Source: Phycisphaerales bacterium
GTDB lineage: Bacteria; Planctomycetota; Phycisphaerae; Phycisphaerales; UBA1924
Direction of reading: 5' to 3'
Assembly: GCA_965228645.1 (NCBI GenBank)
Contig: OZ245827.1
Coordinates: 2,927,694 to 2,991,693 of the forward strand
DNA length: 64,000 nt
Shown: piece by piece, positions 24,001 to 27,000 of the stretch
How positions within the stretch are numbered: position 1 is the stretch's first letter
Layout of the letters: each line of letters starts with the position of its first letter
Position numbers: made by a program

Positions 24001-27000
24001 GCGGATCGAGGCCGTGTCGCTCGCGTTCTTCCACGTCGTGCCCGGCTGGGGCGGGTAATTGCTGTACGCCAGGCACCCGCCCATCGACAGCATCCCAGCG
24101 CCAAGAGCCGCTGCTCCGCACACACCCATGATCCGTCGATTCCGCCGATTCCGTCGATTCATCTGTCGCTCCCGACTGCACAGTCGCTCTGTCCCCGAGC
24201 CGCAAACACTCTATGCGATCACACCGGGGCGAGCAGCCCCGCCGGGCCCCCGAGTTGGCGGGCTACGCGACGCCCCGAAGTGCCCCTTTCTCGCCCCAAA
24301 ACGAATCCGGGGCCCGCTGTCGAGCGACCCTATCATCAGCCGTGGAAACCCGACCCAAAAGATTCGTTGTCGGCATCTCCGGCGCCTCCGGCGCCGCCTA
24401 CGCCCTCCGCACGCTCGAACTGCTCCTCCAGTCCGGGGCCGAGGTCCATCTCGTCGTCTCCGAGTACGGCCAGCGCCTGCTCTATGAAGAAGCCGGGATC
24501 AAGAAAGTCGAGCCCGAATCCCTGCTCCCGGAGCTCATCGAGAGCGACGGCTCCTTCGCCTACAAGCTCACCTGTCACCCCAACAAGGACGTGGGCGCCG
24601 TCATCGCCTCGGGTAGCTACCTCCACGACGGGATGGTCATTGTCCCCTGCAGCTCGACGAGCCTTGGTGCCATCGCCTCGGGCGCGGGCAGCAACCTGCT
24701 CACGCGGGCCGCGATGGTCACGCTCAAGGAGCGTCGCAAACTGATCGTCTGTCACCGCGAGTCGCCGCTGAGCCTGATCGACATCGAGAACATGCGCACC
24801 CTGACCCTGGCTGGCGCGGTCATCTGCCCCACCAACCCGGGCTTCTACCTCAAGCCCCTGACCGTGGGCGACATCGTCGACTTCACGGTGGGCAAGATCC
24901 TGGACCTCCTTGGCGTCGAGCACACGCTGGCGACACGCTGGGAGGGGTGACCACCACCTCAGCCAAGTGATCCGGTAGTCTTTCGAGCGTGAACCAAGAA
25001 GCTCACGCCCCCGAGTCCTGCACCCGCTGCAGCTACCCCCTTCAGGGCCTCGCCCCCGACACCCCCTGTCCCGAGTGCGGCCTGACGCGCCAAGCCGTCG
25101 ACCGGTTTCTGATCTGCCCGCACTGCAGCTACCAGCTTGCCGGGCTCAAGCAGGACATGAGCTGCCCCGAGTGCGGCAAGCCCGTCAGCGACGCCATCGT
25201 CGAGTTCCCGCTCTTTCGCTCCGGCGCCGCGTACGTCAGGCGCATCGCCTCGGGCGCCTCGCTCGTGATGATCGCTGCGTACATGGCTGTGGGCGCGGTT
25301 CTTGTCATGCTCGGAAGCGGATTCATCCTTCCCTTCTTCAGTCGCGCAACCGGGGGGATGGCCGCGGGCATGAACGGCTTTCTTCTGCTCATGCTCGTGT
25401 ACTTCCTGCTGATCATCGGATCGGGCATCGTCTGGCTCGTCGGCTGGATCCGCGCCACGCCGCGCGACCCCGTGTACAAGGGCAGCGTGCCCTCCGACAC
25501 CCCTCGCGCCCCGACCCGGGGCCTTGCGATCGCGGTCTTTAGTTCGTGCTTCTTCCTGTGGATCCCGTTCCTTGGGTTCATCGCTTTCATCGCCCAGACC
25601 GTCTGTTTCGTAGCCATGTTCTTCTACGCATCCGTCTACATCCGCGAGATCGCCCGGCGCATCCCCTCGCCCAGGCTCGAACGGTCAGCCCGCAGACTGA
25701 ACATCACGGGCGCCTGGCTCTGTGCCGCCTTCGGGCTCTGTTTCATTCTGGGGTTCGTGATCGCCAGCTCGTCGACAAGCTCGGCGGGCGACATCGTGTC
25801 CTCCCTGCTCTTTCTGACGTGCTTCATTCTCTTTCTCGCGATGTTGCTTGTGTATCTTCGCCTTGTTTCGAGCTTCGCCAAGACCATGAAGCAGATCCGC
25901 AGACGAACAGCCGAGATGCCCGCGGTGATCGAGTAACCCCGTGAGCGACGATGCACCCACAAGCGCGCTCCAGCGTCAAACAATCTGCATCGCCTGTGGC
26001 TACGACCTCGCCAGGCTCGCTGAGGACGGCATCTGCCCCGAGTGCGGCATATCCGCCGGGGGACTCCGTCATCGCCATCGCCAAGTTCTCGATTCCAACG
26101 GCAGCCGTGCTGTCGGTGATCGCGCACGCGTCGATGGTCTTTGCGATGAGCCGAATCGTGCGCCGGTTGGTCCGCCGGCTACCGGCGCCCGCGCCCCCAC
26201 CCTCGCTTTGAGCTGTCCTCGGTCTCGATCGACTTGCCCCCCACCAGCGCCACGCACCCGGGGCCGACCATCTGCGCCGCCTCGCGGACCAGGCCCGGCT
26301 CGAGTTCGACACGCAGCATGGGCTCCGGGGCCACGGTGATCGCGCTCCCGCAGCTTTCAAAGTCCAGCATCACAGGCACCACCTCGCCCGCGGGCTTTGG
26401 CCCGCCCGGCTGGATCGCGCGGCTCACGAGGAACCGGTGGAGCATGTCCACCGTCTGGCGACCGCTGCCGTTGAGTTTCTCGCTGCGCAGCGTCAGGTGG
26501 AGCCTGCCCTTCTCCAAGGGCTGCCCCTCAATGGGCACCATCCGGTCGACGATGATCTGGGGTGAGCCACGGCTGTGATCCATCCGCCCCAGCACGAACT
26601 TGGGCCCGTCGTCCTCGAACAGGTGCGCAAACTTGGCGAAGCAGTCCGCGAACATCACCGCGTCAGCGGTCCCCGTCAGGTCCTCCAGCGTGATGATGCC
26701 CATCTTCTGGCCCGCGCTGCGCCCGTTGCGCACCACGATCGTCCGTACGCTCTGCACCAGGGCCGCAACGATCACGCGCTTGTCCTGCTGCACCTCCGCC
26801 AGGTCCGCCATCCGCAGGTGCGCAAACACGCCCGACCAGTCCTTCCACTGCTCCAGCGGGTGGCTCGACACATAAAAGCCGAGCGTCTCCTTCTCCAGGC
26901 GCAGCGTCTCCGCCTCGCTCCACGCCTCGGCCTTGACCAGAGGCACGCTGGCAGGCGTACCCGACGACGCCTCTTCCGCAGGCATCCCAAAGAGCGCCCC

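What a model noticed while it worked through the whole genome (the two positions that open the first line are those of the whole stretch)
24989..25936. Order-specific juxtamembrane CPECG zinc ribbon shared by about 30 otherwise unrelated membrane proteins
A ~25-aa C4 ribbon (C-x2-C-x-Y-x-L-x-G-L...CPECG) occurs on about 30 proteins, none with a family row, nearly all next to transmembrane helices; g2515 has two. Reading: a lineage-specific cytoplasmic docking tag that hands many membrane proteins to one partner, such as a membrane protease, as the LapB rubredoxin does for FtsH. New: an intracellular counterpart of C-terminal sorting tags, covering about 1% of the proteome.
Evidence so far: CPECG is the top enriched 5-mer among unannotated proteins, 26 of 27 carriers. 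Six-frame HMM scan: about 30 loci, three uncalled, TM segments predicted in nearly all called ones. Copies: 28 here, 41 and 21 in two order relatives, 0 in 48 other phylum genomes; 9, 75, 22, 0, 0 in five more order genomes. Only weak generic ribbon matches in Pfam; paper search 117 found nothing relevant.
(Added by a program. Inside this text positions count along the whole contig: contig position 2,927,694 is position 1 of the stretch shown here. "Call 12" and the like, gene names such as g00115 and contig names such as C1 are that model's own, and its searches are not shown. The text may have been shortened before it was handed on; [...] marks where a part breaks off. The agent that wrote the report below was given it as the finding of a first reader that could run no searches.)

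Follow-up and report, generated by a model that had tools for sequence, protein, structure and literature searches.

The report
Cysteine-ribbon tail on membrane immunity proteins
About 30 mostly unrelated membrane proteins of this planctomycete carry the same 21-residue four-cysteine motif, and in related genomes genes with this motif often sit directly behind Rhs toxin genes, so they are likely a repertoire of toxin-immunity or toxin-sensing proteins whose predicted cytoplasmic tail would dock on a shared partner that has not been found.

Summary
The motif is real: 31 profile matches plus two long-loop variants, on 32 ORFs, 29 with predicted TM helices; K/R bias puts it in the cytoplasm. It is not order-specific: 93 of 201 class genomes have it, including whole families of other orders, while one family of the own order mostly lacks it (2 of 16). 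New here: in seven ribbon-positive genomes 14 of 53 Rhs toxin tips are followed on the same strand by a carrier (0.8 expected, 0 antisense; 0 of 16 in ribbon-negative lineages). That is the immunity-gene position. One toxin family has a ribbon-tailed partner in three loci and a tail-less one in three. Against this, most carriers are orphans: no Rhs in this genome, none in 76 wide unselected loci. The ribbon is also gained or lost repeatedly in one loop of a LolD-like ATPase. Its predicted fold is a short rubredoxin type. No partner was found, and the LapB-FtsH analogy is wrong in detail. This scan noted the motif before on other DNA; I found no paper. Best reading: a class-wide cytoplasmic docking tail on a membrane immunity/sensor repertoire. 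Interest 0.66.

The parts
24989..25936 (+). g2515: two ribbons + 5-6 TM helices; member of a 50-member ribbon+5TM family that also occurs fused to Ser/Thr kinases
25019..25081 (+). ribbon 1 of g2515 (aa 11-31); partly lost in two of 14 homologs
25115..25177 (+). ribbon 2 of g2515 (aa 43-63); all four Cys invariant in 15 aligned homologs; modelled alone as a short rubredoxin-type knuckle pair
25941..26211 (+). broken second carrier gene: ribbon at 25986-26048, then a deletion junction at about 26052-26055, then a hydrophobic C-terminal helix in another frame; contigs of related strains hold about 570 more bases at this junction
30795..31004 (+). 69-aa stand-alone ribbon ORF (ribbon 30822-30893), overlapping the start of the next ORF
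30997..31287 (+). 96-aa hydrophobic ORF coupled to the stand-alone ribbon (possibly a split carrier; not tested in relatives)
61771..62232 (-). carrier 3 of a tandem trio: one degenerate and one typical ribbon, one C-terminal TM helix
62252..62560 (-). carrier 2 of the trio: ribbon + one TM helix
62796..63212 (-). carrier 1 of the trio: ribbon + 2-3 TM helices

Best explanation
The motif is a small four-cysteine module, predicted to fold as a metal-binding ribbon on the cytoplasmic side of the inner membrane, that bacteria of the class Phycisphaerae carry on a large, fast-changing set of membrane proteins; many of these are likely immunity or sensor proteins against rival Rhs-type toxins, and the ribbon would be their common docking site for one cytoplasmic partner. 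Proposed working: (1) a cysteine-rich Rhs toxin tip reaches the periplasm or membrane (inferred from the cysteine content); (2) the variable TM/periplasmic part of a carrier binds it (inferred from gene position, not tested); (3) the constant ribbon couples the occupied protein to a host factor that signals or clears the complex, in the way SdpI recruits SdpR (inferred by analogy; partner not found). Shown: the motif, its sidedness bias, its range, its modular gain and loss, and the enrichment behind Rhs genes. This genome has no Rhs gene, so its carriers would be orphan immunity/sensor genes, some of them long domesticated (g2515 family). Step odds: cytoplasmic interaction module 0.75; Rhs-adjacent carriers are cognate immunity proteins 0.75; most orphan carriers do the same kind of job 0.45; one shared partner 0.45.
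For: Rhs link: in 7 ribbon-positive genomes of 5 families, 15 of 54 Rhs-core ORFs (14 of 53 after merging one fragmented gene) have a carrier on the same strand within 1.5 kb and before the next core; 0 antisense; 0.8 expected from generous ribbon densities; 0 of 16 in ribbon-negative lineages. In 12 of the 14 the carrier is the very next ORF. The only viral-contig hit (L223), the only true carrier outside the class (L169) and one of two copies in a low-copy genome (L151) also follow Rhs genes. Tips ahead of carriers are richer in Cys (7.1% vs 2.6%; 14 vs 37 tips; p=0.01). 9 of 14 next-ORFs with two or more TM helices bear the ribbon in frame (read by hand), against 15 of 199 such called genes in this genome. 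One toxin family is followed by TM+ribbon in L262, L169, L278 and by TM proteins without ribbon in L274 and in two genomes where no ribbon was found (L276, L277). The tandem pair at contig 1968618-1969891 is homologous outside the ribbon to the Rhs-adjacent genes of L223 (E=4e-5) and L265; all 44 members of that family in 30 loci end in a C4 ribbon. Repertoire behaviour: at least 112 copies in G115, many in arrays of 3-6 low-GC paralogs, like the homogeneous polyimmunity loci of PMC3482391 (passages); 23 of 32 carriers here are in the lowest GC3 quartile (crude); a strain-level deletion breaks the gene after g2515. Module behaviour: insertion in one loop of 36 of 120 LolD-like ATPases, not one clade; fusions to Ser/Thr kinases (4 of 130) and PrsW. 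Precedent for juxtamembrane ribbons as docking sites: GltJ ZnR binds MglB (PMC11135422, passages) and ZitP ZnR binds PopZ (PMC5182065, abstract).
Against: Most carriers are not beside a toxin. An Rhs core was found in 0 of 76 wide unselected loci (759 kb) and 2 of 46 short ones, in 1 of 30 loci of the family above (the seed itself), and nowhere in this genome. Its carriers lie between housekeeping genes, with no toxin-like gene upstream. Rhs genes are as common in ribbon-negative families (f5 4/5, f8 18/20), so immunity does not need the ribbon. The TM parts of L262 and L169 show no BLAST similarity outside the ribbon although their toxin tips are 51% identical (15-20% in alignment), and two similar tips (L247, L258) are followed by different carriers. 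Some carriers are old, syntenic genes, and a ribbon in LolD, DUF4350 or kinases is not explained by immunity. The enrichment could arise because any new small membrane gene in these genomes tends to carry the ribbon. Genomes are kin, so the p-values overstate. No partner candidate passed a profile test. Some LolD inserts are decayed, which suggests weak selection there.
Confidence: 0.45

Rival explanations
1. Self-contained structural module: the ribbon folds fast around a metal at the membrane surface and caps, orients or oligomerises any small membrane protein, with no dedicated reader. Immunity genes carry it only because they are the commonest new membrane genes.
For: Narrow spacing to the membrane (N-type median 30 residues, C-type 19.5); frequent tandem copies; no co-distributed partner found; decay of some LolD inserts.
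Against: Near-invariant P-E and Y-x-L-x-G-L over tens of thousands of clusters is more than a bare metal knuckle needs; sharp presence or absence by family fits dependence on a host factor; tail-less partners of the same toxin family occur where the ribbon was not found.
Confidence: 0.22
2. One reading: a general degradation or quality-control tag that hands membrane proteins to one membrane protease such as FtsH.
For: Cytoplasmic and juxtamembrane; one conserved carrier lies upstream of zincin-like and SppA-like genes (names read by eye); PrsW fusions.
Against: The LapB rubredoxin binds the substrate, not FtsH (PMC11046580); the ribbon occurs in internal loops and inside an ABC ATPase; no protease gene recurs beside carriers of different families.
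Confidence: 0.14
3. Iron rubredoxin-type redox or metal sensor on membrane proteins.
For: Best structural match is a loop-truncated rubredoxin (Z 3.0, rmsd 1.7 over 33 residues), rubrerythrin also listed; sub-threshold hits to rubrerythrin-type models.
Against: All matches are weak and shared with zinc ribbons such as RanBP2 fingers; no redox enzyme among 210 carriers scanned; does not explain the Rhs link.
Confidence: 0.1
4. A DNA-level element: the ribbon codons are a mobile in-frame insert or a recombination junction for shuffling cassettes.
For: Glu codon is GAG in 32 of 33 copies here against 74% expected (p=7e-4); repeated gain or loss in LolD with no link between ribbon and host similarity (Mantel r=-0.02); a deletion starts 3 bases after a ribbon.
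Against: The codon bias does not repeat in relatives (83 of 135 against 65%); other synonymous sites vary freely and loop length varies; nearly all copies are in frame in membrane-protein ORFs.
Confidence: 0.07

Closest known systems
Immunity genes and homogeneous polyimmunity loci of polymorphic (Rhs) toxin systems (Zhang et al. 2012, PMC3482391; passages read)
   Same: Gene directly behind the toxin tip on the same strand; tandem arrays of divergent paralogs away from toxins; strain-level turnover.
   Different: One shared cytoplasmic ribbon on structurally different TM immunity-position proteins; many scattered loci per genome. In the held text 'ribbon' occurs once, for PrsW fusions, and not for an immunity family; the last sixth of the text and the supplements were not seen.
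MJ0042-type ZnR of ZitP (binds PopZ; PMC5182065, abstract) and GltJ (binds MglB; PMC11135422, passages); Pfam Zn_ribbon_4, TIGR02098
   Same: Small C4 ribbon on the cytoplasmic side of membrane proteins, used for protein docking.
   Different: Different consensus and shorter loop; no carrier reaches those models; no roadblock/MglB domain in 5 genomes tested; copy numbers of tens to over a hundred.
SdpI immunity/signal-transduction family (PMC2910880, passages)
   Same: Proposed logic: membrane protein binds a toxin outside and a regulator inside.
   Different: No sequence link tested or seen; SdpI has no ribbon and sits with its own regulator, whereas carriers have no adjacent regulator.
Generic promiscuous C4 ribbons: DZR PF12773, Zn_Ribbon_1 PF13240, Zn_ribbon_3 PF13248, RUBY_RBDX PF21349; LapB rubredoxin domain (PMC11046580, passages)
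   Same: Two CxxC knuckles, rubredoxin-like fold, attachment to many membrane proteins.
   Different: Single carriers stay below every cut-off; multi-ribbon proteins pass DZR only by summing repeats. The LapB domain binds LpxC and sits on one protein.

Membership tests
Rhs immunity proteins | Encoded directly downstream of an Rhs toxin tip, same strand | tested here: met
   Met for 12 of 53 Rhs tips as the next ORF and 14 within 1.5 kb in ribbon-positive genomes; applies to those carriers only
Rhs immunity proteins | Toxin gene adjacent to this genome's carriers, g2515 included | tested here: not met
   No Rhs core in G000; upstream genes are housekeeping
Rhs immunity proteins | Homologous toxin tips pair with homologous immunity proteins | tested here: inconclusive
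   Six loci of one tip family are all followed by 3-4 TM proteins, but identity is 15-20% and BLAST sees only the ribbon
Rhs immunity proteins | Binds and neutralises the cognate toxin | not testable with these tools
   Needs a protection assay; the complex predictor was not available
Homogeneous polyimmunity loci | Tandem, co-oriented divergent paralogs with no toxin gene between them | tested here: met
   Arrays of 3-6 in G115, pairs and a trio here; gene calls in G115 were made with an ill-fitting model
MJ0042-type ZnR (TIGR02098, PF13717) | Profile score above the curated cut-off | tested here: not met
   No hit for 31 carriers
DZR / Zn_Ribbon_1 / Zn_ribbon_3 | Profile score above the curated cut-off | tested here: not met
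   Best 26.2 bits against 27.3 among 31 carriers
Rubredoxin-like domain (rubrerythrin/LapB type) | Two CxxC knuckles in a rubredoxin fold | tested here: inconclusive
   Model pLDDT 78.5; best Z 3.0, tied with other ribbons
Rubredoxin-like domain (rubrerythrin/LapB type) | Bound metal (Fe or Zn) | not testable with these tools
   Needs purified protein
Sorting or degradation tags with a dedicated enzyme | A processing enzyme or reader with the same distribution as the tag | tested here: inconclusive
   Only three candidates profiled, none matched; no genome-wide profile possible

The most novel reading that the evidence does not exclude
Phycisphaerae have an innate-immune-like receptor repertoire: tens to over a hundred unrelated membrane receptors per cell, recruited from toxin-immunity genes, all report attack through one shared cytoplasmic ribbon to a single signalling hub, and new proteins, even LolD, are wired into that hub by capturing the 21-residue tail.
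Probability: 0.2. Interest if true: 0.88.

Novelty: new variant of a known kind. Interest (0 to 1): 0.66.

Why it matters
It gives one handle on about 1% (here) to 2% or more (G115) of the genes of a mostly uncultured class, nearly all of them unannotated, and it defines a domain with no family model that matches up to 56,793 sequence clusters (an upper bound that may include generic ribbons). If the tail has one reader, toxin immunity in these bacteria is wired to a common response, which is known only for single systems such as SdpI-SdpR. The claim is directly testable: one pull-down with a 35-residue bait in a cultured Phycisphaerae strain, and one protection assay with a toxin tip and its neighbour.

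Tried and rejected
Order-specificity: rejected. DNA-level element: codon bias not replicated. A conserved neighbour for all carriers: none in 76 loci; recurring neighbours belong to single orthologous families. A single core carrier in low-copy genomes: not found. Partner candidates: roadblock/MglB 0 of 5 genomes; MJ0042 ribbon seemed complementary in 5 genomes but was scattered in 27 of 201; Minf_1886, fused in one protein, is in 41 of 41 genomes of both kinds; no DUF2007-like protein found in this genome with a small profile (that name is my reading by eye and from recall, no call returned it). Structure: Foldseek gave no match at E<=0.001 for g2515 or the lone ribbon; VIA matches for g2515 were generic helical (best Z 10.8); PDB sequence search gave only partial knuckle matches. 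ESM Atlas: no usable hit for the ribbon; unnamed Planctomycetota clusters for a carrier. Pfam named none of 17 ribbon-linked toxin tips above cut-off. Searches for more homologs of one tip gave 1 metagenome locus and 3 genomes. One search was empty because the threshold was too strict; the first LolD tree did not finish. The complex predictor was not available, so there is no verdict on toxin-carrier binding or ribbon self-association. No RNA holder was listed. Paper searches (0 papers; 0 papers) showed no description of this motif.

Full report
1. The observation. The ORF at window 24989-25936 has two ribbons and 5-6 TM helices. The window lies in a single-contig 3.14-Mb genome; named records with the motif are mostly Phycisphaerae, and that is my basis for the class name. 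The genome has 31 profile matches and two long-loop variants: 33 ribbons on 32 ORFs, 29 with predicted TM helices. Reversed sequences score at most 14.3 bits against 20.6-47.5 for 30 real domains. The window itself holds six carriers. None of 31 carriers sent reaches a Pfam or NCBIfam cut-off. Consensus: C-x2-C-G-Y-x-L-x-G-L-x4-5-C-P-E-C-G-x2-[FIVY] (the second set was selected by pattern, so its invariant positions are forced). A variant ending C-T-E-C-G exists in relatives and is missed by the profile, so counts are lower bounds.

2. Anatomy. The ribbon is N-terminal, C-terminal or in a loop between two helices. Among 135 ribbons from relatives: 73 N-type, 42 C-type, 4 loop, 16 with no TM seen (several truncated); 77 of 84 complete carriers have a TM helix; so do 144 of the 150 best representatives. 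K/R counts place it in the cytoplasm (hydropathy windows, not a trained predictor). With ribbons masked, 317 carriers form 169 clusters. AlphaFold2 gives g2515 six long helices (pLDDT 77) with no fold match. The lone ribbon (pLDDT 78.5) is closest to a loop-truncated rubredoxin at Z 3.0, tied with other ribbons; the metal is unknown.

3. Range. Order: 107 of 121 genomes; five families 104/104, f5 2/16; 2 to at least 65 matches each, capped by scoring (includes unpublished G101). Class: 93 of 201. Outside the class: 2 of 236, one true. A pattern scan of 2 of 64 parts of the all-prokaryote collection gave 125 loci, all Planctomycetota: 88 titled Phycisphaerae, 22 Planctomycetia, 15 without class. 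At least one 'Planctomycetia' record is a genome that the search tool places in this order; the other titles I could not check. 56,793 clusters at 50% identity match at E<=0.001 and 463 at 1e-10. So the motif is class-restricted and patchy, not order-specific.

4. What the carriers are. The only viral-contig match overlaps the stop codon of an Rhs gene. I then fetched 20 Rhs-bearing regions from six ribbon-positive genomes, chosen from Rhs coordinates alone and covering part of the 71 matches plus an array, and added the 30 loci. Of 90 distinct Rhs-core ORFs, 20 were dropped for having under 700 bases downstream (7 from positive, 13 from negative genomes). Of the rest, 15 of 54 in positive genomes (14 of 53 after merging a fragmented gene) and 0 of 16 in negative lineages have a carrier on the same strand within 1.5 kb; none antisense; 0.8 expected. 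Twelve are the next ORF. The tips ahead of carriers are Cys-rich, which suggests action outside the cytoplasm (inference); Pfam names none above cut-off. Nine of 14 multi-TM next-ORFs carry the ribbon (corrected by hand: the script's count of 11 included two cases where the ribbon lies in a later ORF), against 15 of 199 multi-TM called genes here. One tip family, in six loci, is always followed by a 3-4 TM gene: with ribbon in L262, L169, L278; without in L274, L276, L277, the last two from genomes with no profile match. A carrier pair of this genome is homologous outside the ribbon to two Rhs-adjacent genes; the family is in 66 of 201 order genomes, and all 44 members in 30 loci end in a ribbon.

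5. Results against that reading. This genome has no Rhs. Unselected carriers are rarely near one: 0 of 76 wide and 2 of 46 short loci, 1 of 30 in the family above. Rhs genes are common where the ribbon is missing. Homology between the TM partners of one tip family is weak. Some carriers are old and syntenic. So 'immunity' is well supported for a minority and extended to the rest by architecture and behaviour: arrays of low-GC paralogs among at least 112 copies in G115, low GC3 here, and turnover between strains. Contigs of two runs of one study hold about 570 extra bases at window 26052-26055, a length that would put the ribbon and the downstream helix in one frame; I did not see the extra bases. 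A near-identical contig, possibly this DNA's source, agrees with the window.

6. The ribbon as a module. It sits in frame in the loop after Walker A of 36 of 120 LolD-like ATPases (query biased to ribbon forms); this genome's copy lacks it. A FastTree needs 23 changes. An IQ-TREE of 20 ribbon and 20 ribbon-less rows, the latter hand-picked as near relatives from the first tree, needs 12, 9 forced by strong branches, and one clade is rejected (p-AU 2e-64). Two proteins 93% identical differ by it. LolD ribbons are hardly more alike (0.36) than they are to this genome's (0.33), and their likeness does not track the host protein. Gain and loss cannot be told apart without a root; the rarity of the form (4 of 251 genomes matched, a clear ribbon seen in one and a decayed one in another) favours repeated gain. 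Other fusions: Ser/Thr kinases in 4 of 130, PrsW, HEAT, DUF4350, Minf_1886. A DNA-level constraint was seen here but not in relatives.

7. Mechanism. Best supported: variable outer parts recognise toxins or other envelope insults, and a constant cytoplasmic ribbon docks on a host factor for signalling or clearance. Shown: motif, sidedness bias, range, modularity, Rhs enrichment. Inferred: toxin binding, the job of orphans, a single partner. Three candidates failed profile tests. Confidence 0.45; rivals are a partner-free structural cap (0.22), a protease tag (0.14), a redox sensor (0.10) and a DNA element (0.07).

8. Literature. Read as passages: PMC11135422, PMC3482391 (first 300,000 of 357,715 characters held, supplements not opened and they may list such immunity families), PMC12419801, PMC2910880, PMC11046580. 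Abstract and outline: PMC5182065. Search listing only: PMC11237479. Searches found no account of this motif; subscription papers are not covered. Gene names such as dnaN, gatA, SppA, zincin, DUF2007, RanBP2-type finger and Yip1 are my readings by eye or recall unless a call is cited.

9. That word primed me for the Rhs test, which I ran independently.

10. Verdict. Real; range corrected; a new variant of two known kinds (promiscuous juxtamembrane ribbons; polymorphic-toxin immunity repertoires) whose combination I could not find in print. Interest 0.66.

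Noticed in passing
L056:5110-5949 (+); proteins P0167-P0203: LolD-like ABC ATPases with the ribbon inserted in the loop after Walker A, scattered over the tree, some decayed; a 93% identical pair differs by it.
   Followed up: yes
window 26052-26055: Deletion junction of about 570 bases, 3 bases after a ribbon, relative to contigs of related strains; substitutions cluster in the ribbon loop of this gene.
   Followed up: partly
L223:115-5075; L262; L247; L258; L271:5932-6390: Undescribed Cys-rich Rhs toxin tips in Phycisphaerae (up to 25 Cys): HExxH metallopeptidase-like, group XII phospholipase A2-like (one above cut-off at L258:7579-8199), AMOP-like, and a family with no Pfam match (alignment A7).
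   Followed up: partly
L040:5877-6260, L052:5953-6591, L077:5634-6107, P0037: Small soluble proteins joining one or two ribbons to a DUF2007-like domain and a RanBP2-type finger (names by eye); about 4% of unselected matches; not found in this genome.
   Followed up: partly
P0006, P0076, P0079, P0109: Ser/Thr kinases followed by two or three ribbon+multi-TM modules, some of the g2515 family.
   Followed up: partly
L008:745-4959: Conserved carrier co-oriented with zincin-like and SppA-like genes and divergent from a MoxR-like ATPase in several relatives (L043, L049, L065, L099).
   Followed up: partly
L018:3697-3795 (-): Isolated ribbon remnant between dnaN-like and gatA-like genes with no TM part in frame.
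   Followed up: no
L016:4336-5333 (+): Three tandem small membrane proteins sharing a C-terminal 'R-E-[IL]-A-A-Y' motif, a second possible short cytoplasmic tail family.
   Followed up: no
L016:569-3059 (+): Three tandem paralogs with a shared 'ADE..GPWDRTG.P' motif, sulfotransferase-like by eye.
   Followed up: no
window 16929-22459: Cluster of secreted proteins with dockerin-like or PEP-CTERM-like tails, two prepilin-type proteins and two small Cys-rich ORFs, possibly a metal-uptake locus (by eye).
   Followed up: no
G000 contig 2177497-2177880: Minf_1886 family gene: single copy in 41 of 41 class genomes tested, function unknown, fused twice with ribbons in P0025.
   Followed up: partly
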